Source: Paraspadella gotoi
Taxonomy: Eukaryota > Animalia > Chaetognatha
Direction of reading: 5' to 3'
NCBI GenBank assembly: GCA_051294375.1
Contig: JBJCIZ010000040.1
Location: forward strand, 62,001-126,000
Length of the DNA: 64,000 nucleotides
A model generated the notes under the pieces. It saw only the letters and a program-made list of their open reading frames with translations, was not told the DNA's origin and did not search any database. Shown here one piece after another: positions 8,401-34,586 of the stretch (positions within the stretch are counted from its first letter, which is position 1; the number at the start of each line of letters is the position of its first letter). A program made the position numbers and the translations under genes.

Positions 8401-8445
8401 CCAAAAATCTCCATCCTACCGGCAGGATCATTGCGAGTTCTCGAT
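5427..8445 (+). mobile_element. CsRn1-type Gypsy element C, 5' part (putative LTR, gag, PR, RT; truncated; very noisy)
   Basis: SPLHVV at ~7870, KTIFSKIDLLEGYHQIPV at ~8080, PFGLKNA and YLDD-like motifs at ~8200-8300; Cys/His gag motif near 6915-6980; candidate LTR tgtggc...gccaca at 5427-5557 then tggttagccc. Confidence 0.75.
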
Positions 8446-10735: not shown

Positions 10736-11262
10736 AGGGGATTGAACCCGGTACCTAGTGGTCATAAGCTGATGGCTTTACTAAATGAGCCACCGGGTCA
10801 CAACTGAAAGAGTCATGCTTATAGGCGAGGTGAACCTAGGCAATGCCCGACTACATGTCCCCCAAATTGTAACCCACCCTGCACTGCTTCCAGTGGAGGG
10901 AGGGGAGCAATCTTCAGCACGTTCATGGGCCTGGAATCAGAAGGTTGGAATACGCTCGACAGGATGGGCTCACCAGTGTAGATAAGGCGCTAAGTGGGCT
11001 GAAGATGACTATCCGTAACTTCTATAACCCCCTCTAGCAGACATGGAACAGGTCCTGGGCTTGGAACCAGGCTTGAGGGTTTTCCACGCCCACCAGGGCG
11101 GCTTGCGGCCATCCTCACTCTTCCCGCAGGGTAGGTACCGGGTTGGGATTGAACCCGATACCTAGTGGTCATGAGCTGATGGCTTTACTCAATGAGCCAC
11201 CGGGTCACAACTGAAAGAGTCATGCTAATAGGCGGGGTGAACCTAGGCAATGCCCGACCACA
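10736..11262 (-). mobile_element. TRIM 1 with tRNA-like sequence in LTR (Helenus-like); 5' LTR 11262-10977, internal 10976-10856, truncated 3' LTR 10855-10736
   Basis: Minus strand: TGTGG...CTACA LTR, PBS tggtgagccca, PPT-like ttggggga before the second TGTAG LTR; both LTRs contain Box A tggctca and Box B gggttcaatccc. Confidence 0.8.
11136..11207 (-). ncRNA. tRNA-derived (Met-like, CAT) Pol III cassette inside TRIM LTR; not a bona fide tRNA
   Basis: gacccggtggctcattgagtaaagccatcagctCATgaccactaggtatcgggttcaatcccaacccgg; second copy at ~10736-10800. Confidence 0.6.
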
Positions 11263-11990
11263 TATTCACACCGCCTCACGTCCACCATCCTTCAGCCAAA
11301 TCTATTGGCTCAGAGGGGGAACACACCATCCCAGGCGTAGTGTTCCATCCACAGTCCTGACGACTTCCTTCTGCATTGGCAAAGCAAGACCGTCCTAGGG
11401 TAACAGCGCTAGTGACCGAAGGCGTCACTGAGGGTCGAAAGGCCCCAAAGCTAACAGTGAGATGCCCCATCCCAATGGGCATCACAGGCAACCCGGCTGT
11501 TGCCATAAGTGGTGAGCCCTACTATCGAACACACAACCTTCTCATGGTATGCTACGACAAACACCCCTTCCCTGCCAACTTCTAGTATGCTACGACAAAC
11601 GCCTCTGCCCCTGGGGTATGCTACGACAAATACCTATGCCCCCACAACTCCCGCTCTCTCTCTCTCCCACTATGGTAACAGTCATGTCAGACACCTCTCA
11701 GGCTTGAGAAACCTGAGTGATGTCTTGGCCCGGGTATCCTGTGGTGGTATATTCACAATGCCTCACGTCCACCATCCTTCAGCCAAATCCATTGGCTCAG
11801 AGGGGGAACACACCATCCTAGGCGTAGTGTTCCATCCACAGTCCTGACGACTTCCCCATTGGCAAAGCGAGACAGTCCTAGGGTAACCGCGCCAGTGACT
11901 GGAGGCGTCACTGAGGGACGGAAGCCCCCAAAGCCAACAGTAAGATGCCCCATCCCAATGGGCATCACAGGCAACCCGGCTGTTGCTATA
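11263..11990 (+). mobile_element. TRIM 2 (LTRs 11263-11507, 5'-clipped, and 11740-11990)
   Basis: ~245-bp direct repeats ending gccata/gctata; PBS tggtgagccct at 11510; non-coding 230-bp interior. Confidence 0.78.
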
Positions 11991-13840
11991 GTATCATATA
12001 AAGTAGAAGATAATCTAAGATAAAGGGAGCCCATTATTTAAAGTGGAAAAGAATGAGTTGAATATGTTTAAATCTTAAACTATTCCAAACAGAATTTATG
12101 GTATACAATGTTCAAATATGAAGTAAAAACTAGAAAAGATACCTTTTTTGAGACAATTCCACAACTTGTGCAAAAATCAACTGATTGGCAGCCATGTGTT
12201 GCATTCTTGCTAACTGTGTCATTGAGCAAAATAGTGCAGTTATTCCAACATTTAATTGCAAGCGTCAGTTTTAAAAAATAAAATGACAGGACCCACCGAG
12301 AATTAATCATTTTGATACTTTAACGAATCTAAAATATCTATGATGTCAAAGTAAAAGTCATTTAAATGATGATAAAGGATGATGATAAAAAATATTATCT
12401 TGCCAAAATTCTTGGATCAAGATGCTTGTTCCTTGTGCATTTGATTTTTTTGAAACTAGCTACTCCTTTTAATAGATTACCATCTAATGGATATAATTTT
12501 GACAGTATTTTTTTAAAGATTTAAAGCAATATTTTGGTAAGAAAATAAAACAAGAAATAAGGAGTAAACAAGGGAATGTTGCAAGGATACTTTGAAGATC
12601 TACTGGCCAATCGTTTTGGCCAAAGATTTTGCCCATAAACTTTCTCTGTGGCTCTTCACTCAGTTACCGACTTGTAATAAGCCGATGGTCAGTCATGTCC
12701 TGTATGTACTTGTATAAAAAGGTTCAAATTTTTGTATTTTTTTCTCAGTCTAATACAAATTTTATTTCATAAAAAAGAAAAATGCAAAATTATATAATTA
12801 AATAATTATTTAATCGATATTTAATATACAGGGGTGGGACCATATATTCTACAAATAAATACTTCCAAAAATATTTTTGATTGTTATGAGAATGAGATTA
12901 AACGAAAAGTATTCAAACATTTTTCTTCCAAACCGCGCGGAGAAAACCGAGCAGTTGTCTTTGTTGCATCAAAAAAACATAATATCAAAGAATTTCAAAA
13001 CAATCAATATATCGTCTGAAAGCTAAAAGAGAGTATTATATGAATATTTATTCAGATTTTAAAAATCATTAAGAGCTTTAAAGTCAGGATTTTTTAAAAA
13101 AAATTTTGAATATAAAAAAGACCATTGGATCAAGTCGAAAAGATAATTGTTGAATATTTTTTTTTTAATTTTTATTATTTCATCAAAAATATATCTTTAA
13201 AAAAAGGGAGGTTCAGACTAAAATTTAAAAAAATTGGATGGTTAGATTAAAAAATAATGAAATAAATATTGGTGCACTTTTAAAAAATGTTAAGAATAAC
13301 ACAAGCCATTAGAAAGATTCACCTTCGACAAGCATGTCCTTTTCTCAGTGTCCAGAGAAGGTGGCACATGATTTTTCAACTGTCCCATTAGGAATTCTGT
13401 CATCTCTGTCACTATTGTTGCTGTCAGAAAGTCGAAAGTTCTAGAGGGGATGCGTGGGAAATTCTGCTTCTCTATCCTATATTTTCATTTATCAGGGGAA
13501 TTGCAGTCAGAAAAACTGCGGGGCCTAAAGTCAGAAGTCACCATCCTTCATCTTGACTTTTGTCAAAATTTTTATAAATTTTGTAAGGAAGCATCAAAAA
13601 GAAGTTTGACATGTTATACAGAAAACTTTAATTACAGTAGTTGCTGTTGGTTTTTCCAGACGTGTTTGATATTGATTAAAATAAATTTTAGCCTAGTTTC
13701 CAAATTGTTACTTTTTCATCTATCATAAACCGTTTTTGTGCTCTATAACCATTTATGAAGCCGCTTCTGAAAAACTTTCCCTTCATGCTACTTCTAATTT
13801 CTGTTGGACTCAAACTTTTGCAAAATGTCGGATTGGAAGT

Positions 13841-15825
13841 AACAGGTGTTCTTGGTGACAGAGACGAACGAGCACGCGGCAAATTATACAGGTGGGCCCT
13901 CAGTGGGTATATATGTTTTCACTCCATGCTTGGAGCGGCAGAATCAAAACTGAAAGTGGTTATGTCTGGGAATTCATCAAGTAATTTTGCATATACTTTG
14001 CAGATTGACGATGTGGCACGTGTTGCTGTTGCTCAACAGATTTTCAGTGACATTAGAAAAGTCATCAAGATGATCACAACCCCAGTGGAATGATCTGGAG
14101 CAAGATGTAAGTTGGCCAGAAATCAGACCCAAGTATAGGGCGTGGACACAAGGCATGATGCATTCCATCATGTAACCTCAAGAATATTTATTCATGAGAT
14201 CTCGGTGCCCATAGGTGGGAATGGTAGAGTCATTGGCAGTGTAAAGAGGTGTGCCAGTAGGACCATTCTGACGTTGTTGGAGAGAAGGCAGGAACAAGAA
14301 AAAGTCAGCCGCCGCCATCACAACCAACAGACATTGTTAGTATCCGTGAACATGAATTAAACGAGAGATTTTGTGCCGGCGGCGGCGTTCACATCCGTGC
14401 GCCGCGCCAGGCCGTTTTCCGGTGTCACATTGAACAGCCTTCGACACATTTCTTAGCTTTTCCCTTATAATTGGCATGATTAATAGCAAAGCGTGAGGTT
14501 TTTGGAAAAAAATTTGTGCTTGGATGACCAGGGTCTGCTGTGCCAGTTGAAGCAGCACCACCAATTCTGGTGCTTTCCTTGTTGCTTGAAGTCCATGGCC
14601 GCGGCCTCGCCCCCTCCAATTTTGGCGGCCCTCCGATTATGTGTTGCATTAATTGAGGCATCTGTATCGCCCAAAAATGGTGGTGTAAAATTAGTGCCAT
14701 CTACAGCAGAAACTGTTGCACGCTGGAGGAGTTGCCATCGGCACCATACCATTTTCCTGCTGCTTCTGCTACACCCTCAGTGGTTGCATCCTCTCTCATG
14801 ACTGAATCTTGAATGTTACTGGAAGGGATTGTAAAGTGCTTCTTTGGCAAGGTCATCGATAGTGAGGTCCCTAAGAGTTGTTTCTAATAATGCAGCTCTT
14901 CTCCATTGGATGAAGACCATCAAGTTTGAGTCCGCGTAAAAATTGAGCGCGCACGTTGGCTTTTTTGATCGCCAAATTGTTTCAGAATGCGAGCGTTACA
15001 ACCCCTCTACATCAGCCGCAGTTGGAAAGGGCGAGAGTTGACAATAAGTAGAGATAGCACTTTGACGGAGTGGTGGAACAGCAGCAGAGATAAAAGCAAA
15101 TTGTGAAGCAGGGTCAGAAAGGCCAACCATTGCAAATGAGCGTCTGACAGCACTGATCCAAGATTCAACATCGTCTATGTTGAAAGGTGGAAGTGATGGA
15201 GTGCAAACAAAAGTAGGATGTGGCAGCGATTGGGAGTAGGGTTGTTTGTAGAGAAAGCCGTCTGCATTTCTTCCATTGTCAACCGCATGCGCTCTAACTC
15301 CTGTTGATGTTGCTGTTGTTGCTGTTGAAGTTGGCGCTGAAATTCTGCTTGAAGCTGCTGATGCCTGTCGTTTGGAACATGTCGGCGTCCATGGTGGTGC
15401 CGTGGACCCTCTACAGCGCCGAGAGTTGCTGGATTGATTGGTCGGAAGCGCCTGGGATGAGGGTTTTCAAGATTGTTTAATGTTAGAGTCGGGGTACGTC
15501 GCCGCATAAAGGTTGGTCTCATTGGGATTGTATTTCACGCTTTAGTTCACTTTTTAATTCTTTTTCAAATTTTTTTTTTTAAGGGTTGCGATTTTATTTT
15601 CTTTTTGTCGCGGATTACCATATGGCGAGAGAAATAAAGAATCGTTTTTAGTTTCATACATTTATTCGCGAGAGACGAGAAAAAAACAGAGTGAATACAA
15701 AATCAATAATCATAACTGATTCAAACGCGTGAAAAATTGATACGGTTTCAGATGACGTCATACAGAGGTCACGTGAGGGTAAGTAAAATGCAGAAGAGGT
15801 CGCTGCCAAAAAGAGCATCGCTACA
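13841..15825 (-). mobile_element. CsRn1-type Gypsy B, copy 1 (5' LTR 15621-15825, gag, PR; truncated before RT)
   Basis: Near-identical to 29530-31539; gag C-x2-H-x9-C-x3-C motif (HANYKGKAKKCVEGC). Confidence 0.88.
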
Positions 15826-16292
15826 ATTTATTTATTTTTAGCTAAATTGAATATATATTATTGCATGAAAGGGCAAAAAAAAGGAAAAAGGTAAAAGCAA
15901 AGGGCGAAAAAAGGAAAAAAATAAAGGGGGAAAGAAAAGGGGAAAAAGTGAGAAGAAAAAGCAAGAAACAGGAGCGAGATAAATAAAGGAGAAAGAATAA
16001 GAGAGAGATGAGGATAGAAAAAAATGAGAAAAATAAACAAAGGGAAAAAGCAGGGAAAAATTGCGAGAAGAGAGAGAGGGGTAAAAAATACTGGTGAGAA
16101 GGGGAGAGGAGAACTAAGAGAGAACATAAAAAAATAGGTTTTTTTTAAAATTTAAAGATTTCATACCAAAAAATGAAAAAATCACATTTAAAATTAACCG
16201 AATTTAACCGTTAAAATGAATATATTAACGGTTAAGTTTAAAATTATTTTTAACCGTTAATAACCTAACAGTTAACGGTTATCGGAACACTA
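15826..16292. mobile_element. Right arm of hAT-type element family 2 (duplicate of 31540-32004)
   Basis: Ends aacggttatcggaacacta followed by atcactgg; subterminal aaccgtt repeats. Confidence 0.8.
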
Positions 16293-16337
16293 ATCACTGG
16301 TGCATCGTGCCAGTTCACGTTTAGTGAGAGAATCCTT

Positions 16338-16980
16338 ATGGCATCCCTTACCATCACTCCCACAAAGGTGTTGGTGCTTCATCATCCTTTCGCCTATCAG
16401 ATGATCTCTGAGGCTACTAAAGTGGTGTGCCATGTTAATTCCATCAGCAGCTTTGCCCAATTCACTAGGCCCACACTTCTCATGGTTTTGGGCATGCTGT
16501 GAAGATATCGCTCCTTTCAACATTATTTCCAAACGGACGTTGTAGCTAATCGGCAAGCGTATTGAAGATCTGTGTCCCCGCGCTACAATCAGTCTGATCA
16601 AGTTTTGCCATCTGCGAATCAGTTTCATAACCTTGATGGCTCATACCTCGGCCTGATGCAAAGATCAAGGCAATCTGTGAAGATTTGGTTCGATTGAACT
16701 TACGCGATTGCGCGGCCCACAGTGAACATCCCGTCCGCGGAGACCCCATTCGACCGTCCTTTTGAGTCGGAAGAGAATTGTGCCTTGCTGTCCTCTCACG
16801 TGGCACGACTTCGCAATCCGCTCTGCAAGTCCGCCCCTGCAGTGCTGAAGGCGCACCCCAATTACCTTCCCAAAGTCCATGGCAATCCCCGTTTTCACGT
16901 AATGTGGTCTTGAGCATTTCCATATTGAGCCTTCCTTTACTTCCTGCGGGTACAAGAAAAAGGAGAGTGCTTGATCAACT
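16338..16980 (+). pseudogene. Putative ORF0 upstream of gag in A (second copy ~32049-32720)
   Basis: ATG MASLTITPTKVLVLHHPFAYQMI...; shared downstream frame LSSHVARLRNPLCKSAPAVLKAHPNYLPK in both copies; lies between PBS and gag. Confidence 0.5.
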
Positions 16981-19255
16981 CCTCGCGGACCGCAACCCTC
17001 AGATTTTAGCTCAATGCAGCAATGCTTCAAGCCCACGACATCTTTCCTTTCTCTACAGTTCGGATTCTCGATGAAGCCTCCTATAACACCTAGTCTAACC
17101 CGACACTGTGCAAACTTTTAGAAAGACCTTAAGAACTCTGAACCAAGCTTCCAATTTTAGTCAATCATTACATATTTCCAATCGTCATCCTATAAAAGTC
17201 CTTCGACCTTCCTTTACTGGTCCAAGGCAAGCTGCAGGCACAACAACCAGGTGTTCTCCTTTGTCGCCTCCCTCCTTCCCAGGTGGGTAAAGAGAGTCCC
17301 CTACTTTCCCTTATATTTTTTATTTACCCCCTAAATGTTTATATTCATATAATTACCCTTTCTCCCCCCTGTTGTTGGTGACCTTTGTTCCCAAGATGGC
17401 GGTGGCGAGAGAACCTCAAACCGACCGCGCCGCGTCCTCTATTGCGATGAAGCCTTTGATTCATCCAAGGACGACTTTGAAGAATGGATTAACTTATTCG
17501 AGAAGGCAGTCGTGCTTGCGACCAATCCCTCCTCGCCAACAAAAAGCATGAAATTCTTTATCAATTGGCTGCCTCTCAAATTAGACGCGTTGGCCAGACA
17601 AATCTTCAAACAGAAAACCAAAGATAACTATGAGGAATTAAAAATCGAACTCATCATCTCTTCGTTGATCCACAAGATACATATGATTTTCTGGCTAAGA
17701 AAAAAACTATTAAGTGGGATGGAAAAGAACCATTCCATGCTCTCGCCTCCCGTGTTATCACATCGGTGACAAGCATGAAAAATATCAAACCCTGCAACTA
17801 AGGCGGTGAATATTTCTTCACCTTCCGCGCCGCCTTGGAAAAGCCATATAGGAACGCCATAGATCTAGGTTGCGGCGAAGACAAAAGAACCATAGAAGAA
17901 GCAAAGAAGATTGCTCAGAGGTTCCATATGACCCAGGCTGAAGACGATGACAAAGCGAAAGCAAATCAGTTTCCTTTACAGGCGCCGCTATGAAAGACGA
18001 TCGTATAAAAATCCTGGAAGATGGCCTTAGCAAGCTCGCATCGAAATGGAAAATCTCCGCTCTGATACCAGAGGTAATAAACAAACGGATGATGGATACA
18101 CAAGCGAACGCCGTCGCAACTTCTCACCGAGTCCCTCAAGATCCAGAGATGGTTCCGATCAGATCGTGGCCCCCTCCTACAACCGCGACGACCGCAGACG
18201 CGACTATCAAAACAGGCGCGACCGGTTCCGTAGATTGGACCGATCAGACCGATACGGAAGCGCTACGCACGAAGCAGCAGTCGCGACAGCCGTGATAGCA
18301 GCAACTCTAGCGCCGCCGCGATGGAAATGGTCGAAACGAAGGCAGATACGGCCCGTGAAGGCCAAGACTTTAGAAGAAGAGACAACTTCCGCAACCCTGG
18401 AAGAGACGCCTACAGGGCAATCCAAACCGAGATGAGGAAAGTGATGTTAGCGAAGGCGAATTAAGTTCTCCGCCTGTATCGCGAACAGCGCAAACGCGAT
18501 CGCGATCAATCCGCCAACTCCTCATCCAACAGCAAATCAAAAATCTTATTCAAAAAACTAGAGGACGACCTTGCCACGGGCAAGCAGGGTCAAATGACAG
18601 AGAGTCCCCTAAATTAGAAACTTTAAAGCCTAAATGGAAAGCAGAGTTCTTCGCTAGAGTGGGTAATGAAAAACTATCAGTCCTTGGCGACACAGGCTGT
18701 CAAAGAGGCTGGTCAGCGAGGAATTCTTCAATCATCATCCACTTCTCTGCGCCAAAGTAAGTAGACCCCTATCCTTTACAGGTACAGCCATAATGCCCAA
18801 AGACTAACTATAGGCATCGCTAACATTAAATTTAGAATCAATAATACCTATATGCATATGAATTGTAGAATTGTGCGAGGCCTTATCAACCCTTCATTCT
18901 TGGCTGGGACTTTTTCTGTAAATATAACGCATTTCTAATTCCCTCCGAGGGAAAACTAGAATTTCTTGGCCTTTCTTCCACACCCCTGATGAAAACACCC
19001 ATAGGCTCTCCGGTTGTTCTACCGCATCCCCGAGGACACTGTCATTCCTGCTAACTCAAAAATGCATCTGAATGTGAACTAATGCTAGATAATAAAGAAG
19101 CCAACGAAGCCTCCAAAACAGTCATAACAGAGCCCTTCGCTAATGGTAACGAGAGTCTCCTTGCTTGCAAGTGCGTTTCGTCTGTGAAAGAAGGCAGATT
19201 CCTCACAGAAGTCATGAATTTAACCAACAATAGCCACAAAGCCATAGCTGGTTAT

Positions 19256-19851
19256 TTAGGCCGGAACAGGTTGAAGTTCTCTCAAATAAATAATGGTAAA
19301 GTGACTGTTAGAGAATATGAAAATAAAATAATTTTTAAAAAATTATTTCATTAATAAGCGCACGGAAGCCTTTAAAGATTATTTTATTACATATAAAGTA
19401 AAAAATTTTTTTTGAATTTTTCAATTTTTTTTGATAGATTCTGATAGAGCTTTAAAAGTTAGATTAAAGGTTATTAATACAAATTTTTAAATTTTGTTTG
19501 TTTATTGATAAAAATTTTAAAAAACCATAAAATTCAGCCAATGATGATGATGAGTATGATTTTTTAACTTTTTTTTTTTAACCAATTTCTTGTCAAAATT
19601 TAAAAAAATTGTAGTACTAACTTTCATTTAACTATTCAAGCTCTATAAGAATCCGTTCTTAAAAAATAAATTTAAAAATAAAATTTTTGTCATTTGTTAT
19701 ATATTAATAAATATTTAAAAGCTTCAGTGCAACAACCCAATGAACTAATTCAAAAAGTTGCATTGAAAATCGATTTAGTAATGGAAGGAAAAAGAAAATT
19801 TTTTTGAGAGAATTAGAAGTTATAAAAAGTGTTCAATTTTGGCCCGCCTTA
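19256..19851. mobile_element. hAT-type MITE family 1, second copy (same site as in copy 1)
   Basis: TSD ctggttat at 19248-19255 and 19852-19859. Confidence 0.85.
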
Positions 19852-20520
19852 CTGGTTATGTCCTGGGCTATTGCAGAATTCACCACGATGAGTCATGTGA
19901 AGTTGCTGAAACAGGAATTCTGTAAATTGCAAAAATGTCAATAATATTTCTCGGCCTAAAAATTTCCATTCCCTTTCACATTCCACTTTTGGTAAAACAA
20001 AGTAGTTTCATATAAAAGTCTATTGTAATATTTTATTCTTGCGCCATTTCCCTTCGATTGTTATATACTGAAATAAACTCTCGTTCATTTTACTCTTCGG
20101 TATCGAAATTCTTTTCACTAAAAATCCGGTCTCCACTTTGGTGTTCCAGCCGCCTGGTTACGAATAAAGTTTTCTTTTAAGCCCTCCGAAGCGAAATACT
20201 CGTTCGTCCGCTACCTAAATTTCTAACAAATTTAAAAGAGAGAAAATCTCAAATTTTACGCTTTCGCGTTCCAATTCTTTTCCAATCTTTTTTCGTGCGC
20301 CTTTGCGGCTTCAACAAAGGACACTCGGAATTTTGAAGTGAGATTGTTCTTAGGTTTTTTTATGAAGCAAGGAGTTGTAAAAAATAATTGGGCCATAGTT
20401 TTTTATAAAAAATTGATAATTAATTAAGATCAGTAAAAATTTGTTACCAATTCATATTTTTCTCCAAGGTCTATCGCAGATCTTACCTTACCTTTTCTGA
20501 AATTTTATTAATTTTTAGTT

Positions 20521-20840
20521 ATGGCATCAGGGGAGCCGTCGGCTGGACCGCCAGTTGGCGAGTGGCGAAACCATCAAAATTCCGACAGCGGACAGATTAT
20601 GAGAGAGAGTCGTTCCCTAGATCAATTAGGAGGAACGAGAATAGACTGCCGGCTTGCCAGAAGATCGGACACTCGACATCTCACAGAGGAGGAGTACATC
20701 AATCTTTGAAAAGGCGGTAGACAACTGAGAGCAGAGTTTGTGAAGAGGAAGACTAAAGAAGAGATGAGAGGCAGTAAAAGAGGGTAGAGTGGGGTAGAAG
20801 AGAGAGAAGGATTGGAGAAGTTAATGGAGGTGAGCAAGAG
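20521..20840 (+). pseudogene. Truncated gag-like N-terminus of element D
   Basis: First long ATG frame after the PBS leader; charged coiled-coil-like sequence ending abruptly near 20840. Confidence 0.4.
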
Positions 20841-21889
20841 GTGTGAACAGCTTCTTTTTCCTTACCAAAGCCTATCTCCTACCATCTCGGTTCTTTTCCG
20901 AACTCTTCTCTACTCTCCCGTCAAAAATTTTCTTTCCCGCCTACTTCTCTAACCCCGTTCCCCCCTCAGTTTTCCGTGCGTTCCTGCATCGTCAGCGGCC
21001 CACGCCCGCCAAGGTCCATCGATCAACTATCCGGACAGAGCATCGGTCGGCCAAATCGATGAAGCAGATTAAGACGAAGCTGAAGCAAACGGACGACGCA
21101 TTTGTGTTCCTGCAGAATGAGTCCATCATCCAGCAAGAAATCGGCCATGTTTTTCCAAGCTGAGTCTTTTGCGCCGACGGAAAGTTGCCAATTGTTGCTG
21201 ACCCATTTCTTGATGATAACCTTAGACCATATTATGCAACATTTATCTCTCACACCCGTATTACTCTGTTGCACGAATATTATTTTGTTCACTGAGTGTC
21301 ACCTGTTTCCCAATTTTTCAAAATAGTTGTCTTAGTAAATATCAAACGATGAACAAACTAAAGACGCAACGGTTATGCAATTTTATTTACGTTTTTCTAT
21401 GTAATGAAAGCTTCTTGGGCGCGGGACGAAAACCAATTTGTTTGCGATTTTATTTGTAAACTGAAAGATAAAAATGTTAGCTCGCGTCGTGGAAGATGCT
21501 TATCATCCGGGGGTGGAAGAGACTTTATCTGCATGTGGCGAGGCACGCCGATAGCCTTGGAAACCAAATCGTGGCCGGCGAAAGGCACTGCGACCGTCGA
21601 TGCCGTCGATTTGCCCAATCGTCGAGCAGATGGACGTTTCCACCATCAAAAGTTGGCGGCCGCAGGGCGGCAAAGCAGCGGTTTAGGGGCGGCCGCTCTG
21701 GGCGTGGCAAAGGCCCGGCAATGGCCGGACGTGGACGTTGGTCGGCGAATCGTTGTCGCCGATGACACTCAAAGTCGAACCAGACGTTTTCTCGTTTCAT
21801 CTCTATGACGCTCCCTCCTCCACATTCGTTGCTTATTACTGCTGAAAGTTAGCATGGAAGATTTGGATCATACAAAGAAAAACCATGTT

Positions 21890-23390
21890 TATTTTTTGCG
21901 CGGAGGAATTGGGTCAGCACCCATCCGTCGGTACATGTCCCAAAAGCACCCAAGAGTAAACCGCAATTTGAAGCTTGCCCATGAAAGATGCCAAAGGAGG
22001 AAAGAAGGATGCATGAGGGGCGCGGCGGCGAAGTCTCGTCAGTCATGATGTCGGGCTGCGCCGTCAATGGCGTCTTGGAAATTCTACAAAACATGGAAAC
22101 GATTTTTCGCGAAAATCAGGCGTCTAAGAAAAACAACTGATTCAAATTTTACTGCATCATTTTCGTCATCGTCATCAAATTTTTCAACTGCAGTTCTTTG
22201 TCAAATTTTTTTGCCAATAAGCAATCAAACTCTTCTGCCAGGCCGCTACGCCCAAAGAACCTGCCTTTTTCTCAATCAAGAGGAAAGTCCGCTTGAATCA
22301 CTCTGCAATAAAAAATATTTCAGATGAATTGTGTCAATTTTTTGAAAGCAAGAAGAGGACTTACTATGTCTAAGCTTAATGTCTCCCACATTGAAATGTC
22401 CAGCGCGGACCTGACTCCGGATATGAATGACACTGAGTGGACGCGATTTTCCGGCAAAATGATTCCACTGATCCGGCACACCCTCCTCGGCAGTCGGTGA
22501 ACAAAGCTAAGTTGTTCATCAGATGACTGGGATCCGGGACAGTCTAATTAGAGAAGGAATTAGTTCAAAAGGGAGCTATTTCCATCTCTTCAATTAGTGC
22601 CTACTCACAGTAGCAGTTGACCAAGGCGTTGGCAGAAAAGTGTGGAAATCAAGAAGTGGAAAGGTCTTCTTGGCCTTTGGACACGTCTCAATGTTCAACT
22701 CTCAGATAAAGATGTAGCTTCAGGCCACACTGCAGGAAGTTGAACGAAGTTGTGGATGAGCCTATTAAACCAAGGAAGTTCCAGTTTTTCCTCAGACGAC
22801 AGTTCTTCAGAAAATTTTGCGATATGCAACAGGCGCTGATGTGAGTGAAAAGAAAAAATTGATTATTTGCTAAGGAAAGAGGAAGTTACCAGATAAACAT
22901 GAAGCTTTGCTTTTATCTATGGGGACTTGGCATTCCTTCGTCACCGCAGTCGTCTTTCCATCATCAGTAATCAGGAGTGCTACTACGCTTGTGGACAGCC
23001 CCTGATGGAGGAATCAAGTTCTCTCCTTGTTGTGTCTGAGATGGAATTTCATCGTCTTTTGAGTAAGACTCATGAAACAAAATTTGCTGCGGTCAATCAA
23101 GGTTTTGATCATGTTGTTGTTGAAATAGTTGCCCAAATAGCAACGAATTCATTCAAGTGCCCATTCTCTAGTCCTCTGGAGAATTCAGATATTCCCTGGA
23201 ATCATCTCATTCGTTCAAGTCTATCCCGAGAGAGTCTCATCAAATTGGTTGAAGATGAGAAAAACATTAGACCGCCTGTGCCATGCCCGCCTGCGGACCG
23301 CCTCTTACCCGTTTGGCTGCTCGCCGCTCTGCTTCTGCAAATGCCGAGGCCGGTGGATGCAAATTATCTTCTTTTTGTTGAGACATCATA
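21890..23390 (-). CDS. Spliced antisense gene of unknown function inside element D (at least 5 exons)
   Basis: Four short GT-AG introns on the minus strand at 22889-22836, 22608-22544, 22364-22303 and 22152-22084; two junctions are in frame (PWSTAT|TVPDPS and DDENDA|NFQDAI). Confidence 0.6.
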
Positions 23391-25313
23391 AACAATTTAC
23401 TAAATGTGGACTAATAAATTTTGTTTTTATTATTCTGACTAGAAACTTTAATGTATTTCTTACAATTGATAAATTTTCAATGTGTTTTTTGAAACTTAAT
23501 TTAAAGGAATACAATTGTTTAATTAAAAATGTGTTACAAAAAAAAAATTTGTATTAAATATTGCAGAATACAGTTGCCAATAGATTAAATTTGGCGAAAT
23601 GTTATTTACATGATGAATTGCACGTGTCTTTTTGTTTACTCTTTTTCTCGGTGATAAGACCGGCCCTGGGTTGTGTGTTGGGTTTGTAATGAGTCTGTTA
23701 GAACGAATTAGAGAATGGGTGACCACTTGTAAATTTCACTGTATAATTGATTAATATATATTATTCAATCATTATTGTACTCACATTAGTAGACCTTCTT
23801 CAAGTTTGTAGGAATCCGTCAGGATCCTTCTTTTTGAAGCACTGGCGGACTACAGTTATGAGAGATGTAAGGGAGTAATGAGAAAATGGTCGAAACTATA
23901 CAATTAATTATATGTGTTATTAATCATAATAAAATTAATTTTGATTACATGTATGTCGCTATTAATCAAATCTTTTGAGATTCAGGTTCTTTGACTCACG
24001 GTTGAAGAGAAAGCAACCGATCACCCTGACACCTGCGAAGATTCTTAACGGCGGACACGTCGCTTGAAAAATGTTAAGATTGCCATGGAGTGTGAGAGGG
24101 GGATCGCTATATGTGTGAGCTAAAAGTTAAATTTATTAATTGTGATAACTGATCAAAAAATAAATATTGCATGTTGAACCAATATTGAAATCAAAGATCA
24201 ATAATCAATTGTGACAGTAAGCTTATTTCGTAAAAATTAGTAAAAGTTTTTTTCAAATTTTTTTCATAAAAAAAAAAATTGATGATATTTTATTTCCGTT
24301 TTGAATTATTGTCTACAAATTATTGCCATTTCGAATTCAACTTATTTTGTGCATTTAGAAAACTTATTCTTAATAAAATTGGAATTCGTCGGTTATGATT
24401 TTGTATTTGAATTGTTTTTTGCCATACTATAACTATTATCGTCTGCGTATTGCGTAATGCAATTTTTCATATGTCTTTTGTTTTATAAAAGTTCGAAAAT
24501 GTTATATAATTTTAAAATGAGCATCGACTTACTGTTTTGTTAGATCGAAAATTGTTTGCTTATGAAAATTATTTTGAAAGAAAGTGTATTAATAAAACTT
24601 GAAATTAATTCCCTTTTATATATTCGCGTTTCCATTGACTGATACATTTAAAGGTAGAACCTTGTGAATTTTATATGTTATTTTGGCTTAAAAATTTTTA
24701 TTTTTTTTAACCCTGAGTGAATTTATAGCTATCGTTTTAGAAATATTTATTTTGTTTTTTGAAATTTTAGTAGCATGGCCGAGTGAAGTTCGTGCAGAAC
24801 AGAATTCTGTAAATTGCAAAAAATGTCAATAATATTTCTCGGCCTAAAATTTCCATTCCCTTTCACATTCCTACTTTTGGTAAACAAAAAGTAGTTCATA
24901 TAAAAAGTCATTGTTATTTTATTTCTCCGCGGCATTTTCCCTTCGATGTTTATACTGAAATAAACTCTCGTTCATTTTAACTTTGGTATCGAATTCTTTT
25001 CACTAAAAATTCCGTCCTCCACTAGTCCCTGAATAATTTTGCATCAGAAACCGATATGGTCTGTTGCTTCTCTAGCGAAGACTCTGGTTATGAATCAGAG
25101 GATCCTGGCGACTCTGTGGGTTCCGACTCAGAAAAAAGAATTCGAGAATGACCCCCCGCTAAGGCAATGCCTCCATTAACACTAAAGAAAAACCCCCGCC
25201 CCAAAGAGACATCAATACCCGAAGGAAGCTAAAAGGTTAAAAGTTAATTACAGACAATACCGCGGGCAGATGCCAAAACCCTATTATANNNNNNNNNNNN
25301 NNNNNNNNNNNNN

Positions 25314-25900: not shown

Positions 25901-26849
25901 ATGTCAATAAAATTGTTGTTGTAACAAAACAAATTTTTTGCTAATCTCATAACACAACGAAACGAAAGAAGATACCATCAAATTCTAATTCTATATTTTG
26001 TTTCTCTTTCTTCTCTTTTGCCTTTCTCTTTTTTTTCTCTACTTCTTTCTATTCCCATTATTTTTGTAGTTGTTAGTTTCTTAAACGCTTGTTTTTCTGT
26101 TGTTGGGTCTTTCATAAACTATGAGCAATGGTCATTGACATAAATATAAATATGAATATTTAATTTATTGATAGACTGGTTGATTTATCGATTGATCAAA
26201 ATATTTATTGATTAATAAATATATTTTTCACGTTTAATTAAAAAGTATATCATCATTATTCTTTTTTATATATCTTTTTTAAGATTCGTTCCTTTTATTA
26301 TTAATTTTTAAATTTTTTAAATAATTTTTTTATTTGGTTTTTTATTCATTTTTCATTCATTCGGTTTGATTTCATTTGCTTCTTTTGTTAATTTTAAAGA
26401 GGGAAAGAAAATGAGAGAAAAAGTAAAAATAGGGATTATAATGGCGAGAGAATAAAAGAATCGTTTTTAGTTTCATACATTTATTCGCGAGAGAGGAAAA
26501 AACAGGAGTGAATACAAATCATAAATCATAACTGATTCAACGGTAAAAATTGATACGGTTTCAGATGAGTCATACGAGGTCACGTGAGGTAAGTAAAATG
26601 CAGAAGGTCGCTGACCCAAAAAGAGCATCGCTACAACATCCCCCTTCTACTCGATGTACGAAAGTAAAGTACGAGTTGAAACAAACTACAAAACTATCAT
26701 TAATGACTATGATTATGTAAGGAAACGAATTACATAGGAAATAAACGGATCTTTAAAAGTAAACAAACAACAACAACAACAACAAAATTACGAATGTATT
26801 TAAAATGAGTTTGATAAAAGATTTTCCCCTAATCTTCCGAAGTCATTTT

Positions 26850-29800
26850 GTTGATTGTCAGGTGGACGTAGTGTTTCTGGAAGGGCATTCGGCATGCACA
26901 TGGAGGTTGACGGCGAGAGGGAGTTTCTTGTGGGAGACATGCCGTGCCCTGCGTGGTTCTCGAGCTTCTGGTAGAGTTTGTTGAGGATCTGGCGAGTTGG
27001 AGCCTTTCCTCGGCGAGGGAGTCTGAGGAGGTTGAGTTATGCTAGATGCGGTCAAGATGCGCGACTTTAAGACGCATCACAGATATTGAGCCGAACCGCG
27101 TCCAGGAAGTTCTATGACAAAATGTTTTCATGACGTTCTAAAACTCGAAATGGTCTCTTGGTATGGAGCCTGGATGATGGACCAACATGACCATTCTCCG
27201 TTGTCGAACGAAGACGTATTCTGCTACCTTGAGTGCTTCTGGAAACGCCATGATGGTGGGATTTTCCATGATATATGACTGGTTGAGGAAGCAAGGTAGC
27301 GACATCGATACGAAGTTGTTGGAGGATATGACGAGATGCAGCCAGTGTCATCTGAAGTTGAAGCAGGGGCCAGGGATGAGTTCGCCAGGTATAGTGAGTG
27401 ATTCTCCAAACACCATCTCAGCTGCAGAGGCTTCCAGATCGGGCTTTAGTGCTGTTCTAAGGCACCTAACAAGTCTCATGGAAGCTCGTGAAACCATCTT
27501 TCTGATTGTTCCTCAAGCGAGTTTTTTAGTGATGCTTTTATAGTCACGATGGAATCTTTCAACCATGCCATTAGTCTGAGGATGATATGCTGTTGTTGAG
27601 CGTGTTTGTATCCGATATATTGTGCTAGTTGTCGCCAAAACTCGGAATGTAAACTGTGGTCCACGATCAGTAACTACTAGGTGAAGGGAGATCCCAAAAC
27701 GTTGTACCCCATCATGAAGGAAAGCAATGGCAAGGTTATGAGCGGAAGTTTCTCGAATGGAATGGCTTCAGGCCAACGTGAAATCTGTCTACAATGGTTA
27801 GTAGATGTGTATGACCTTTGGAAAGTGAGAGTGGTCCAACAACATCAATGTGAACATGTGCAAAACGTCGTGGTGGTGGGCTCAAAATTGACAAGAGGTG
27901 CTCTTACATGTTGCTGCACTTTAGAGCGCTGACATGTTATGCATGTTCTAGCCCAGTTAACAATGTCTTTCGCGCAAAAGGACCATACAAATCGTTGGAG
28001 CACTAAAGATTTTGTTGCGGTTAATTCCAGGATGAGATAATCCATGGAGAGCATCAAAAACCGCCGTTTCCATGCAGGAGGAACAAACGGCCGAACTTTG
28101 CCTTGCGAGATGTCACACCAGAGGCTAGAATCTGAATTGGGATGTGTTGGAATTTAAGGCCACTCTGTGGGTCATTCAGTAGGCGTTTAAGCTCTTCATC
28201 CTTCTTCTGATCTTCACCATGGCCACAAAATCAATACCTTGGTTCTGAACAGCGCAAAATAGTTGCTGGAAGTTCTTCCCAAGCAATGTGGGCGATTGTT
28301 TGTGTGGAAGAGGTTTGAAACAGCATCAATATCAACACGAGAGAGAGCATCAGCTACTTATATTGGCTTTACTTCAATAAATTGTACGTCAGTTGTGTAT
28401 TCTGCTATTGCACTGAGTTGATAACTTTGTCTCATAGAGTGTGGTTCTGCCTTCTTGACGAGACCAGGGACTAGCGAGTTGTGATCTGAAAAGAGAGAGT
28501 AAATGGACGTCCCTCCAGAAAGGACGAAAATGACGAACAGATCGGAAAGCAGCAAATAACTCCTCTGTCGAATGGCAGGCCACTTGCACTGGCCCCCTTC
28601 AGAGGGCTGAGAGAAAATGCAAGTGGCTTCCACTGATTGTTCTAGTACGCCACCGATAGCAAGATTAGAGGCGTCTACCGTCAGAGCCAGTTTGCGCCGT
28701 CCAACAGGTGAACAGAAGAGTTGCTTTAGCTAGAGCTTCTTTGATATTATCAAATGCAACATCACATTCTTTTTGGCCAAATCTAGGGTTTAGGTTTTTC
28801 CTCTGAGGATGCTGTATAAAGGACCTAAGTTTGGGCTGCATGGAGGCAAAAAACGACGGTAATAATTTAGCATGCCTAAAAAACGCTGAAGATTCTTTCA
28901 CAGACTTGGGCGCGGAAAATTTTCTGATTGCCTCAACTTTCTCAGGAAGTGGTTTGAATTCCATCTGCATTTACATGATAACCTAGAAAGTCTAAAGAGT
29001 CGCTCCAAACACGCATTTTGACTGGTTAATAATGAGTCGTTTGTAGAAAGTAATTCAAACAGGCGCCCTCAAAGTCCTTCACATGTTCCTCTTTTGATGA
29101 GCTTGCCACTAAATGTCGTCAAGATATACAAAAACGTGTGGAATGCCTTGAAGAATGCTATCCTCATTCTTTGAAAATCCTGAGCAGCATTCTTCAAGCC
29201 AAATGGTGTCCGTAAATACTCATAAAGGCAAATGGGGTATTATGGCAGTTTTAGGTGTATAATCTTCCTCAGCTACTGGGTTTGGTGATATCCTTTACAG
29301 TAGATCTATTTTGAAAAGACGGTCATCTCCTGCAATGTCTGCATTGAAATCTAGGATGTTTCTGATTGGGTATCTGTCAGCTTTGGTTATGGAATTTTAG
29401 TTGTCTATAATCCCCACAGGGTCTGAGGCTGCCATCCGGTTTTTTTACCACATGAAGGGTGAAGACCAAAGGGCTACGACCTTTTGCGTATGATGCCAAG
29501 TTTCTCAAGAGCATCAAATTCTTCTTTGGCAGCAGCAGGTGTTCTGGTGACAGACGAACGAGCGACGGGCAAATATCAGGTGGGCCCTCAGTGGGTATAT
29601 GGTGTTTTCACTCCATGCTTGGAGCGGCAGAATCAAAACTGAAAGTGGTTATGTCTGGGAATTCTATCAAGTAATTTTGCATATACTTTGCAGATTGACG
29701 ATGTGGCACGTGTTGCTGTTGCTCAACAATTTTCAGTGACTATAGAAAAGTCATCAAGATTGATCACAACCCCAGTGGAATGATCTGGAGCAAGATGTAA

Positions 29801-30120
29801 GTTGGCCAGAAATCAGACCCAAGTATAGGGCGTGTGGACAATGCGCAATGATGCATTCCCATTCCAAAAATTGTAGCCATCAAGAATATATTTCATGGAT
29901 CGGTGCCCATAGGTGGGAATGGTAGAGTCATTGGCAGTGTAAAGAGGTGTGCCAGTAGGACCATTCTGACGTTGTTGGAGAGAAGGCAGGAACAAGAGAA
30001 AAAGTCAGCGCCGCCATCAACAAGCCACTCAAGATCATTTGTTAGTATCGTGAACATGAATTAAACGAAGATTTTGTGCCGGCGGCGGCGTTCACATCCG
30101 TGCGCCGGCCAGGCCGTTTT
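26850..30120 (-). pseudogene. pol: Pol of Gypsy B (PR, RT, RNase H, IN; indels probably mostly sequencing error)
   Basis: WLVDGGAD at ~30010; SPLHVVKKPDGSLRPCGDY at ~29410-29460; YLDD at ~29120; PLPEKVEAI; SDHNSL; WARTCITCQRSK; HIDVVGP. Confidence 0.9.
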
Positions 30121-31226
30121 CCGGTGTCCACATTGAACAGCCTCGACACATTTCTTAGTTTTCCCTTACTAATCTGCATTAATAGTCTAGAAGCGTTGAG
30201 GTTTTGGAAAAAAATTTGTGCTGGATGACCAGGGTCTGCTGTGCAGTTGAAGCAGCACCACCAATTCTGGTGCTTTCCTTGTTGCTTGAAGTCCATGGCC
30301 GCGGCCTCGCCCCCTCCAATTTTGGCGCCCTCGATTATGTGTTGCATTAATTGAGGCATCTGTATCGCCCAAAAATGGTGGTGTAAAATTAGTGCCATCT
30401 ACAGCAGAAACTGTTGCACGCTGGAGGAGTTGGCCATCGGCACCATACCATTTTCCTGCTGCTTCTGCTACACCCTCAGTGGTTGCATCCTCTCTCATGA
30501 CTGAATCTTGAATGTTACTGGAAGGGATTGTAAAGTGCTTCTTTGGCAAGGTCATCGATAGTGAGGTCCCTAAGAGTTGTTTCTAATAATGCAGCTCTCT
30601 CCATTGGATGAAGACCATCAAGTTTGAGTCCGCGTAAAAATTGAGCGGCACGTTGGCTTTTTTGATTCGGCCAAATTGTTTCAGAATGCGAGCGTACAAC
30701 CCCTCTACATCAGCCGCAGTTGGAAAAGGGCGAGAGTTGACATAAGTAGAGATAGCACTTTGACGGAGTGGTGGAACAGCAGCAGAGATAAAAGCAAATT
30801 GTGAAGCAGGGTCAGAAAGGGCCAACCATTGCAAATGAGCGTCTGACAGCACTGATCCAAGATTCAACATCGTCTATGTTGAAAGGTGGAAGTGATGGAG
30901 TGCAAACAAAAGTAGGATGTGGCAGGATTGGGAGTAGGGTTGTTTGTAGAGAAAGCCGTCTGCATTTCTTCCATTGTCAACCGCATGCGCTCTAACTCCT
31001 GTTGATGTTGCTGTTGTTGCTGTTGAAGTTGGCGCTGAAATTCTGCTTGAACGCTGCTGATGCTTGTCTGTGGAACATGTCTCGGCGTCCATGGTGGTGC
31101 CGTGGACCTCCTACTAGCGCGCCGAGAGATGCTGGATTGATTGGTCGGAAGGCGCTGGGATGAGGGTTCTTCAAGATTTGTTTAATGTTAGAGTCGGGGT
31201 ACGTCGCCGCATAAAGTTGGTCTCAT
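30100..31226 (-). pseudogene. gag: Gag of Gypsy B
   Basis: Starts MRPT...; Gln-rich stretch; SDPASQFAFISAAVPP; CHCC motif, then G GAA AAC slippery site and ggcggcg/cgccgcc hairpin (clearest in copy 1, ~14380-14425). Confidence 0.8.
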
Positions 31227-34200
31227 TGGGATTGTATTTCACGTTTAGTTCACTTTTTAATTCTTTTTCAAATTTTTTTTTTTAAGGGTTGCCGATTTTA
31301 TTTTCTTTTTGTCGGGGATTACCATATGGCGAGAGAATAAAAGAATCGTTTTTTAGTTTCATACATTTATTCGCTGAGAGAAGCAGAAAAAACAGAGTGA
31401 ATACAAAATCAATCAATAACTCATAACTGATTCAACGCGTAAAAAATTGATTACGGTTTCAGATGACGTCATACGAGGTCACGTGAGAGGTAAGTAAATG
31501 CAAAAGAAAGGTCGCTGACCCAAAAAGAGCATCGCTACAATTATTTATTTTTAGCTAAATTGATATATATTATTGCATGAAAGGGCAAAAAAAAGGAAAG
31601 GTAAAAAGCAAAGGGCGAAAAAAAGGAAAAAAATAAAGGGGGAAAGGGAAAAGGGGAAAAAGAGAAGAAACAAGAAAAACAGCGGCGATAAATAAAGGAA
31701 GGAAAGAATAGAGAGAGAATAGAGGATAAAAAAAATGAGAATAATCAAAGGGAGAAAAGCAAGGGAAAAATTCGCGAGAAGAGAGAGAGTGGGTAACAAT
31801 ATGGTCGAAGGGGAGAGGAAAGAGAGAACATAAAAAAAATAGTTTTTTTAAAATTTAAAATATTTCATACCAAAACAATGGAAAAATCACTACTTAAAAT
31901 TAACGGAATTTAACCCGTTAAAATGAATATATTAACGGTTAAGTTTAAAATTATTTTTAACCGTTAAATAGCCGTTAACAGTTTAACGCGTTATCGGAAC
32001 ACTAATCACTGGTGCATCGTGCCAGTTCACGTTTAGTGAGAGAATTTTATGGCATCCCTTTACATCACTCCCACAAAGGTGTTGGTGCTTCATCATCCTT
32101 TCGCCCTATCAAGATGATCTCTGAGGATAAATGTGGTGTGCCATGTTAATTCCACATCAGCAGCTTTGCCCAATTCACTAGGCCAACACTATCTCATGTG
32201 GTTTTGGGCATGCTGGGAATATGCAGTACTCCTTTCAACATTATTTCCAACAAGACCGGTACTATGTTAGTAGCCTAATCGGCAAAGCGTATTGAAGATC
32301 TGTGTCCCCTGCGCCTACAATCAGTCTGATGCAAGTTTCGCATACTCGAATCAGCTTCATAAACCTTGATGGCTCAATCACCTCGGCCTGATGCAAAGAT
32401 CAAGGCAATTCTTGAAGATGTTGGTTCGATTTGAATCTTTACGCGATTGCGCGGCCCACAGTGAACATCACCGGTCCGGGAGACCCCATTCGACCGTACC
32501 TTTTGTAGTCGGAAGAGAATTGCTGCCTTGCTGTCCTCTCACGTTGCACGACTTCGCAATCCGCTCTGCAAGTCCGCCCCTGCAGTGCTGAAGGCGCACC
32601 CCAATTACCTCCCAAAGTCCATGGCAAATCCCCGTTTTCACGTATGTGGTCTTGAGCATTTCCATTTGACGCTTCCCTTTACTTCCTGCGGTACAAGAAA
32701 AAGGAGAGTGCTTGATCAACTCCTCGCGGACCGCAACCCTCAGATTTAGCTCAATGCAGCAATGCTTCAAGCCACGACATCTTCCTTTCTCTACAGTTCG
32801 GATTCTCGATGAAGCCTCCTATAACACCTAGTCTAACCCTGACACTGTGCAAACTTTTAGAAAGACTTTAAGAACTCTGAACCAAGCTTCCAATTTTAGT
32901 CAATCTTACAATATTCCAATCGTCTATTCCTTATTAAAAAGTCTCTTTCCGAACCCTTCCTTTTATATACGGTTCAGAAGAGCAAGACCTGCGCAGGCAC
33001 ACAGAGAACAGAACAATAAGAGTAGTTTTCTTTTGTCGCCCCCCCTCCCTTCCCCCAAGGTGGTAATGGCCGGCTTCTCATGACGAGAGACCCCTAACTC
33101 ATGACTTCACTCAGTCTCAGTGTTAACCTCCTTCCCTATATAAATGGCGACGTCAGTGAGTGATAATAACCCGTCCCTGTGCGCTCTGCGGCGCTTGGCT
33201 ATTGGGCTGGACCTTGTTCCTCGAACGGAATGGCCCCTACTGGCGAAACGCACAAGCGTTTGGTTCCCAGTCGCCCAGATTCGCGGAAAAGTTTGAAATT
33301 GGGTTTAAATTTTATGAAGATGGGTACAACCAATATTAAAAAAATTATCCATTCATTTAATAAATAAGCTTATCGTGGTCGCGCCGCTAGACTTTGGAGC
33401 GAGGACCTCTATAATATCGCGATCGCGTGTCCTGCATACTTCGTGATCTTCCCCATCACGTCTTATGTCGAATGCACACCTTTTACTAAGATTCATCATA
33501 AGGTCAGGGGAGGCTTTAGACGGATATGGATTAATCTCCAGTAATGGGGCAGTTCCTGCTGCCGACCCAATACCCTCGCCGTCGCAGAATAACAAAAAAG
33601 CAGGTTACCAATTGAATTTATTTATCAATGGCTTTGCCTCTCCAAATTAGTATGATACGTCCCTCTGCTCTTGGCCACGACAAATACTTCCATAACCCAC
33701 GAACCACATACTCGATAACTATGTCCACTGGTGTATCAAAACACTCTCGCACCTCCTACTCCCCTACCTTTCTCTCTCCTTGCTCCTCCGATCACAACTC
33801 GAGTACGACCTCATGATTTCTGGCTAGAAAAAAACTAATAGATATGGGATGGAAAAGAACCATTCCATGCTCTCGCCTCCCGTGTTATCACATCCGGTGA
33901 ATCAAGCATGCAAATATCCAAAACCCTGCAACTAAGGCGCGGTGAATATTTCTTCACCTTCCGCGCCGCCTTGGACAAGCGCCATCATAGGAACGCCATA
34001 GATCTAGGTTGCGGCGAAACAAAAGAACCATAGAGAAGAAAGGCAAAGATTGCTCAGAGGTTCCATATGACCCAGGCTGAAGACGATGACAAAGCTGAAA
34101 AGCAAATCAGTTTCCTTTACAGGCGCCGCTATGAAAGACGATCGATAAAAATCCTGGAAGATGGCCTTAGGCAAGCTCGCCTCGAAATGAGGAAATCTCC

Positions 34201-34586
34201 GCTCTGATACCAGAGGTAATAGGACAAACGGGATGATGGATACACAAGCGAACGCCGTCGCAACTTCTCACCGAGTCCCTCATAGAAATCCATGGATATT
34301 CGCTGGCACGCTCATCGTGGCCCCTCCTACAACCGCGACGACCGCAGACGCGACTATCAAAACAGGCGCGACCGGTTCCGTAGATTGCGGACCGATTCGA
34401 GACCGTGATTCGGAAGCGCTACGACGAAGCAGCAGTCGCGACAGCCGTGATAGCAGCAACTCTAGCTCGCCGCGGCGAGGAAATGGTCGAAACGAAGGCA
34501 GTATACGGCCCGTGAAGGCCAAGAACTTTAGAAGAAGAGACAACTTCCGCAACCTGGAAGAGACGCCTACAGGGCAACAAACGTAG

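What the first reader, a model, noticed from the sequence alone, without database searches (positions are those of the whole stretch)
21890..23390. Multi-intron antisense gene carried inside an LTR retroelement
Seen: element D has LTRs, a TSD and a PBS but no pol. Its minus strand has four GT-AG introns of about 54, 65, 62 and 69 nt with pyrimidine-rich acceptors, and at least two splice junctions keep frame. Established: sense introns tend to be lost during retrotransposition, whereas antisense introns survive in the genomic RNA. Inference: this is a retrotransposon-borne spliced accessory or captured gene with no family I can recognise.
Basis: partly seen in the sequence, partly recalled or inferred. 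Interest (0 to 1): 0.8.

Follow-up and report, generated by a model that had tools for sequence, protein, structure and literature searches.

The report
Backward intron-bearing gene in animal retroelement
A polymerase-less jumping element of an animal carries, on the strand opposite to its own genomic RNA, four intron-shaped segments that likely belong to a spliced extra gene of no recognised family, a layout already described for fungal and plant elements, but splicing and the protein are untested because this copy is error-ridden and incomplete.

Summary
The anatomy is real. D (19895-25023) is an LTR element with AGT..ACT ends, a 4-bp TSD (AGTC) checked against an empty site, a TGG primer site and no detectable pol. 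Four minus-strand GT-AG segments (54, 65, 62, 69 nt) lie where stated and beat composition-preserving shuffles (1-4 of 300); the plus strand has none. The 'keeps frame' argument is void: the window differs from short-read contigs by about 50 gaps per 850 nt, and random junctions stay open about as long. In 5 of 7 runs contigs leave the window at 23122 for 121-826 letters, so this copy likely lacks part of the gene. No spliced read, homologue, family or fold was found; an Mrr-nuclease look-alike on the plus strand failed testing. Best reading: a non-autonomous Gypsy-type element with a spliced antisense accessory gene, whose introns persist because the packaged RNA is the other strand. Antisense extra genes are known (Boty brtn, Grande, Retand), and this scan found spliced ones before on other DNA. 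What would be new is an animal, pol-less, errantivirus-ended carrier and an unplaced protein.

The parts
19891..19894 (+). 5' target-site duplication AGTC
   Evidence: single copy at empty site 2685-2688
19895..20137 (+). 5' LTR (243 nt), ends CTCCACT; TATA-like 20011, AATAAA 20072 on +
20139..20156 (+). Primer-binding-site-like TGG run right after the LTR; tRNA species not identified
   Evidence: LTR-to-TGG joint in X1 and X7; no tRNA gene in window
20521..21805 (+). GC-richer sense-strand coding-like block (ATG 20521), broken frames, no family; gag-like only by position
   Evidence: plus-strand stop triplets scarce in 21480-21840, P 0.02; Mrr-like lead rejected
21888..21893 (-). AATAAA overlapping the predicted stop of the antisense gene
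21890..22083 (-). predicted last exon
   Evidence: GC 0.53
22084..22152 (-). intron-like segment 4 (69 nt, GTAAAA..TTGTAG; weakest donor)
22153..22302 (-). predicted exon
22303..22364 (-). intron-like segment 3 (62 nt, GTAAGT..TTGCAG; strongest)
22365..22543 (-). predicted exon (one frame stop-free)
22544..22608 (-). intron-like segment 2 (65 nt, GTGAGT..AATTAG)
22609..22835 (-). predicted exon
22836..22889 (-). intron-like segment 1 (54 nt, GTAACT..CATCAG)
22890..23389 (-). predicted first coding block (ATG 23389); stops in all three frames (10, 6, 11); overlaps a 162-codon plus-strand open frame 22903-23388
23122..23148 (.). site where short-read contigs leave and rejoin the window; this copy likely lacks at least 121 nt, at least 826 nt by run X9
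   Evidence: tables 7, 8
23400..23948 (-). three further intron candidates 23463-23400, 23784-23739, 23948-23896 (leader introns or a second small gene)
   Evidence: only 23784-23739 passes the strict cut
24782..25023 (+). 3' LTR (242 nt), AGTGAAG..CTCCACT; no clear polypurine tract before it
25024..25027 (+). 3' target-site duplication AGTC

Best explanation
D is an LTR element with errantivirus-type AGT..ACT ends and no detectable pol that likely moves with a helper's enzymes and likely carries a spliced, protein-coding accessory gene on the strand opposite to its genomic RNA. Shown: LTRs, TSD, TGG primer site, plus orientation, four minus-strand GT-AG segments in excess of chance, no pol similarity. 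Inferred: the plus-strand genomic RNA is made from the 5' LTR, packaged and copied in trans by a Gypsy-type RT and integrase; a separate minus-strand transcript starts in the AT-rich 24200-24780 stretch or the 3' LTR, is spliced at four to seven short introns and ends near the AATAAA at 21893; because the genomic RNA reads these introns as CT..AC, the spliceosome does not remove them and every new copy keeps them. Speculative (about 0.3): the product is a nuclear regulator or anti-silencing factor that helps the element family, by analogy with antisense extra ORFs of plant elements.
For: Element anatomy and empty site. AGT/AnT ends mark errantiviruses and their derivatives (PMC5408687, passage; PMC3601003, passages). 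Intron excess is minus-strand only and survives shuffles that keep local composition: 3 strict, 1 of 300; summed score 0-1 of 300; plus strand 0; densest cluster in the window; narrow lengths, GC dips, AATAAA at the predicted stop. Single DNA contigs carry several of the segments in one piece (22243-23122 in X6, 22288-23122 in X7), and overlapping pieces run from 21211 to 23122 with one listed gap at 21680-21726, so no pol sits there on these paths. Contig depth over the gene is about 3-12 times that of the empty-site contig in 4 of 4 runs, a weak sign of many copies. No TIR pair brackets the gene.
Against: No spliced junction in any of 7 runs laid; the only 'RNA?' run covers introns 1 and 2 unspliced. 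No homologue by phmmer over 1.84 billion representatives (one frame only) or by two word searches. The stop-triplet test does not favour minus-strand coding (exons P 0.76) and in 23148-23389 favours the plus strand (P 0.018 against 0.99); the test is weak, 2 of 8 known coding controls pass. A 162-codon plus-strand open frame overlaps the first block. The splice matrix is generic, from memory, and written after I had seen the introns. No helper with the same LTR is in the window, and the polypurine tract is unclear.
Confidence: 0.55

Rival explanations
1. The minus-strand unit is a real spliced transcript but non-coding; it would act as antisense RNA that pairs with the element's genomic RNA and feeds small-RNA control.
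For: Splice signals are the only positive evidence; no frame or homologue. Non-coding antisense RNAs are known for micropia and TART (PMC7264820, part 2).
Against: Exon blocks are 150-500 nt, GC-richer than the introns and flanks, with a start ATG and a stop overlapped by AATAAA, as in compact coding genes.
Confidence: 0.15
2. The segment is passive cargo: a piece of an intron-bearing host gene or of a DNA transposon taken up at DNA level in reverse orientation and carried along without function.
For: Deletion variants are common (joints 22943->23278, 22184->22310, 21099->21307) and this copy likely has one. LTR elements do capture host sequence (PMC5131818, passages), although by an RNA route that removes introns.
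Against: No TIR or internal TSD; no similarity to any transposase or host family, though Pfam also missed a visible RT remnant at 8050-8480 in this noisy sequence; the segment is present in all 7 runs at depth above the empty-site contig.
Confidence: 0.17
3. The plus strand is the coding one (a long gag-like or other ORF broken by sequencing errors), and the 'introns' are reverse complements of A-rich codon runs.
For: 162- and 138-codon plus-strand open frames; each intron-like segment has at least one open or nearly open plus frame (translations); plus-strand stop triplets are scarce in 23148-23389.
Against: Block shuffles keep the A-rich dips yet reach the observed intron count in only 1-4 of 300; none of the other pol/gag regions of the window gives such a cluster on its reverse strand.
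Confidence: 0.13

Closest known systems
brtn of Boty-like Ty3/Gypsy elements (Botrytis, Sclerotinia; Zhao et al. 2011, PMID 21802103, not held; seen only as cited in PMC7264820, PMC8365987, PMC4227169; its multi-exon structure is recalled)
   Same: Extra gene antisense to the element, next to the 3' LTR.
   Different: Boty is fungal, has gag-pol and 5-bp TSD (PMC4227169 passage reports 5 bp for its solo LTR); D is animal, pol-less, 4-bp TSD, AGT..ACT ends; no sequence link tested positive.
Antisense additional ORFs of plant Ty3/Gypsy elements: Grande gene23, RIRE2, Retand TRP28 (PMC7264820 parts 1-2 of 3; PMC11963269 passages)
   Same: Antisense, 3' part of the internal region, unknown function, own promoter proposed; some Retand families are non-autonomous.
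   Different: Described as ORFs (the word intron does not occur in PMC11963269); TRP28/PF04195 not hit here; plant only.
Errantiviruses and their derivatives (gypsy, ZAM, Idefix groups; PMC5408687 passage, PMC3601003 passages)
   Same: AGT..ACT termini with extended complementarity (6 of 7 nt), TGG primer site; 4-bp TSD (recalled as typical).
   Different: No pol or env detected, so no phylogenetic placement; host taxon not established; antisense spliced genes are not mentioned in the passages read.
LTR-mediated retrocopies in animals (PMC5131818, passages)
   Same: Foreign coding-like sequence flanked by LTRs and mobilised as a pseudo-element.
   Different: Those arise from mRNA and are intronless; here the introns are present and antisense, and no parent gene is found.

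Membership tests
LTR retroelement (non-autonomous) | Two direct LTRs with inverted termini and a 4-6 bp TSD | tested here: met
LTR retroelement (non-autonomous) | Primer-binding site after the 5' LTR | tested here: met
   TGG run at 20139; joint in X1, X7; the tRNA itself not identified
LTR retroelement (non-autonomous) | Polypurine tract before the 3' LTR | tested here: inconclusive
   only a mixed 13-mer precedes 24782; noisy sequence
LTR retroelement (non-autonomous) | No pol in the element | tested here: met
   for this copy; the segment missing at 23122-23148 was not read
Errantivirus / insect-ERV clade | AGT..A(A/C)T termini | tested here: met
   3' LTR AGTG..CACT; 5' LTR has one extra base at its start; feature from PMC5408687
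Errantivirus / insect-ERV clade | RT/IN phylogeny and env (or derived loss) | not testable with these tools
   D has no pol or env; no genome held to find the helper
Antisense additional gene (brtn / aORF-3R type) | Antisense to the element, in the 3' internal region | tested here: met
Antisense additional gene (brtn / aORF-3R type) | Present in most copies of the family | tested here: inconclusive
   covered in 7 of 7 runs; LTR:gene depth about 2:1 in X1 and X7 but about 4-5:1 in X2 and X9; contig depth is no copy number
Antisense additional gene (brtn / aORF-3R type) | Transcribed and spliced | tested here: inconclusive
   no spliced joint in contigs of 7 runs; none is on record as RNA
Antisense additional gene (brtn / aORF-3R type) | Intact conserved ORF; TRP28 or other known domain | tested here: inconclusive
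   frames unreadable (about 50 gaps per 850 nt); no Pfam hit, but Pfam has low power on this sequence
Nested DNA transposon | TIRs and own TSD around the gene | tested here: not met
   only short AT-rich inverted matches, none bracketing the gene
Mrr-type restriction endonuclease (plus-strand ORF 21362-21805) | PD-(D/E)XK fold and profile match | tested here: inconclusive
   Atlas 0.92 but only 119-148 shared features; own 18-sequence HMM -1.2 bits, 209 of 2000 shuffles as high, HHalign probability 3%; model pLDDT 37, no fold match; contigs show 18 gaps in 21449-21680

The most novel reading that the evidence does not exclude
An animal retroelement family with errantivirus-type ends has shed pol but kept and amplified a multi-intron (four to seven introns) antisense gene of a wholly new protein family, so the non-autonomous element works as a mobile carrier of a trans-acting factor, for example an anti-silencing protein that pays its helper for transport.
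Probability: 0.25. Interest if true: 0.7.

Novelty: new member of a known kind. Interest (0 to 1): 0.4.

Why it matters
Antisense extra genes of LTR elements have no known function, and a 2020 review asks for antisense and spliced transcripts to be looked for (PMC7264820, part 2). An animal example kept in a pol-less, multi-copy family would suggest that the gene is selected for its own sake and would give a small target for testing anti-silencing or export functions. As it stands it adds one more likely case without a protein identity.

Tried and rejected
No genome held. Run search: 9 runs, word share 0.08-0.10, no RNA holder listed; this blank is no evidence on expression. 7 of the 9 runs were laid; all are contigs; difference tables were cut (152+305 and 87+233 rows not shown), so conservation of the eight splice dinucleotides is untested beyond 'none of the listed rows hits them'. 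A joint 22074->22150 in X1, X2, X4 nearly matches intron 4, but its side is 21 nt, the letters between are unknown and the ends are off by 9 and 3 nt: lead only. Protein searches with stops read as X: word search frame 1, 0 of 2776 candidates; phmmer over all representatives, frame 0 of 21888-23123, 0 hits; word search frame 2, 0 of 4 candidates. Control: single-frame read-throughs of four noisy pol copies found relatives at E<=1e-3 in 11 of 12 frames, so close relatives would likely have been seen; distant ones would not. Related-locus scans of metagenome and viral contigs and a 29-nt LTR pattern in viral and genome contigs: nothing. Pfam, PHROGs, PADLOC, PDB sequences, phages, plasmids, Rfam: nothing of note. 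Atlas on exon 3: no usable hit. A three-frame alignment as a profile was misregistered and dropped. Mononucleotide-shuffle stop test seemed to favour the plus strand; with dinucleotide shuffles the effect over the exons vanished. Mrr-like nuclease lead: not supported. Helper search in the window: D's LTR matches nothing else; similarity to the AGTG-starting stretch at 5057 is not significant (17 of 200 shuffles at best). Ten literature searches listed no paper on an intron-bearing antisense gene in an animal LTR element; the library lacks most subscription journals and Repbase reports, and no supplements were read.

Full report
Setting. The window is a nest of LTR elements and repeats. Self-comparison shows a Gypsy-type host element present at 1-5054 and again at 17229-19897 plus 25024-25288; the second copy is split by element D. 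RT, RNase H and integrase hits lie in other elements (27516-28729 minus, 34790-36023 plus). The host taxon was not established; short GT-AG introns and earlier notes on this genome point to an invertebrate animal (inference; notes unchecked). No genome is held.

Element D. The LTRs are 19895-20137 and 24782-25023, 88% identical with mostly single-base gaps. AGTC flanks both ends and occurs once at the empty site of the sister host copy (2685-2688); contigs of 4 of 4 runs show the empty-site joint. The 3' LTR reads AGTGAAG..CTCCACT. AGT/AnT ends are described as the mark of errantiviruses and their derivatives (PMC5408687, one passage; PMC3601003, passages). TGG follows the 5' LTR, and TATA-like and AATAAA motifs lie on the plus strand of the LTR, so the element's sense is plus. 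Eighty pol proteins related to the host element's pol annotate the other elements but give one hit at E 0.6 inside D. The polypurine tract is unclear.

The introns. All four segments are at the stated sizes with GT..AG ends on the minus strand, T-rich, GC 0.29-0.37 against 0.41-0.53 between them. With a generic splice matrix that I wrote from memory, three pass a strict cut against a shuffle mean of 0.4 (1 of 300). Shuffling within 12- or 25-nt blocks, which keeps the AT-rich dips, gives 1 of 300 for three strict and 2-4 of 300 for four looser hits, and 0-1 of 300 for the summed score; the plus strand has none in 21790-23450; at the loosest cut the count alone is no longer unusual (46-55 of 300). 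It is the densest cluster on either strand of the window. Three more minus-strand candidates lie upstream (23463-23400, 23784-23739, 23948-23896), and AATAAA overlaps the predicted stop at 21893.

Sequence quality. Seven of nine listed runs were laid. The window differs from their contigs by many indels shared by all runs, for example 47 gaps over 22288-23122 (X7) and 50 over 22243-23122 (X6). Frames therefore shift about every six codons and cannot be read from the window. In X1, X6, X7 and X8 contigs run 121 letters past 23122 into sequence not in the stretch, in X9 826 letters, and in six runs a contig begins exactly at 23148. This copy therefore likely lacks part of the first coding block. 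Overlapping contigs cover 21211-23122 with one listed gap (21680-21726), so no pol is inserted there on these paths. Depth over the gene is about 3-12 times that of the empty-site contig, a weak sign of a multi-copy family; LTR to gene depth is about 2:1 in two runs and 4-5:1 in two others.

Expression. No joint matches an intron with GT-AG ends. X9, guessed to be RNA, covers introns 1 and 2 unspliced and also holds the empty site, so it likely is DNA. A short-sided joint near intron 4 in three DNA runs is only a lead. Splicing is untested.

Protein. No family or homologue was found. The phmmer method does find relatives from equally noisy pol copies in 11 of 12 frames, so close relatives are likely absent from the library; Pfam, however, missed a visible RT remnant at 8050-8480, so distant families are not excluded. 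Strand of coding could not be settled by stop-triplet counts: the exons show no depletion on either strand, 23148-23389 favours the plus strand, and only 2 of 8 known coding controls pass. A 162-codon plus frame overlaps the first block. The sense block 20521-21805 has no family either. Its last ORF scored 0.92 against Mrr-type nucleases in the Atlas, but shared features were under 170, an HMM from 18 Mrr proteins scored it -1.2 bits (209 of 2000 shuffles as high), the model was poor, fold searches were blank and contigs show 18 gaps across this stretch. I do not accept it.

Mechanism. Shown: element anatomy, orientation, strand-specific intron-like signals, no pol similarity, no TIRs. Inferred: transposition in trans by a Gypsy-type helper; an antisense transcript from the AT-rich 3' region or 3' LTR, spliced and polyadenylated near 21890; introns kept because the packaged RNA is the other strand (established logic of LTR replication, recalled). 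Speculative: a nuclear regulatory or anti-silencing role, as proposed for plant antisense ORFs (PMC7264820, parts 1-2 of 3; PMC11963269, passages). I put a real spliced antisense unit at about 0.7, protein coding at about 0.55 and the regulatory role at about 0.3.

Known and new. Antisense extra genes near the 3' LTR are known from Boty (brtn; paper not held; cited in PMC7264820, PMC8365987, PMC4227169; exon structure recalled), Grande, RIRE2 and Retand. Earlier notes of this scan report spliced antisense genes in several fungal Gypsy elements and in one env-bearing element of another genome (unchecked). Ten paper searches listed no intron-bearing antisense gene in an animal LTR element, within a library that lacks most subscription journals; other papers seen only as passages or one part (PMC5131818, PMC12477816, PMC10886601, PMC12992720, PMC12440569 part 1 of 5, bioRxiv 2022.06.16.496473) added no such case. 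D works like a brtn-type carrier; membership of any protein family is unshown. Verdict: likely real, a new member of a known kind, interest 0.4.

Noticed in passing
window 5052-8480: A second junction GAGTC|AGTGG, the same target and start motif as D, begins a stretch with a TGGTGGCC primer-like site near 5479 and an RT remnant at 8050-8480; possible AGT-ended helper lineage, but no LTR similarity to D and no empty-site proof.
   Followed up: partly
window 1-5054, 17229-19897, 33490-38718, 48510-50745, 57641-59907: Host Gypsy family with TGGTGACC primer site; its RT has 80 relatives at 62-84% identity in unnamed assemblies, pol proteins about 1700 aa with a long disordered tail.
   Followed up: partly
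window 38255-43208, 44500-46300, 52602-57153, 62000-63800: A repeat of about 5 kb in direct and inverted copies with arrays of a 16-nt unit (GGGAGGAATCCCGTGT-like) and intron-like segments kept between copies (39530-39614, 39860-39936, 40455-40505); no Pfam hit.
   Followed up: no
window 19360-19730 and 2159-2524: An AT-rich, self-inverted insert of about 370 nt inside the host element's pol, MITE-like, shared by two copies.
   Followed up: no
window 26433-31540 and 13833-17290: A minus-strand Gypsy element with 205-nt LTRs, TGGTAATCC primer site and RT-RNase H-integrase, plus a partial second copy.
   Followed up: no
window 10738-11990: Duplicated 119-nt and 246-nt units; the first starts with the reverse complement of a tRNA B-box-like motif, SINE-like.
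   Followed up: no
window 21461 and 21390-21331 (minus strand): A strong acceptor with CTAAC branch-like motif and a weak 60-nt intron candidate downstream of the predicted stop; the antisense unit may extend further.
   Followed up: partly
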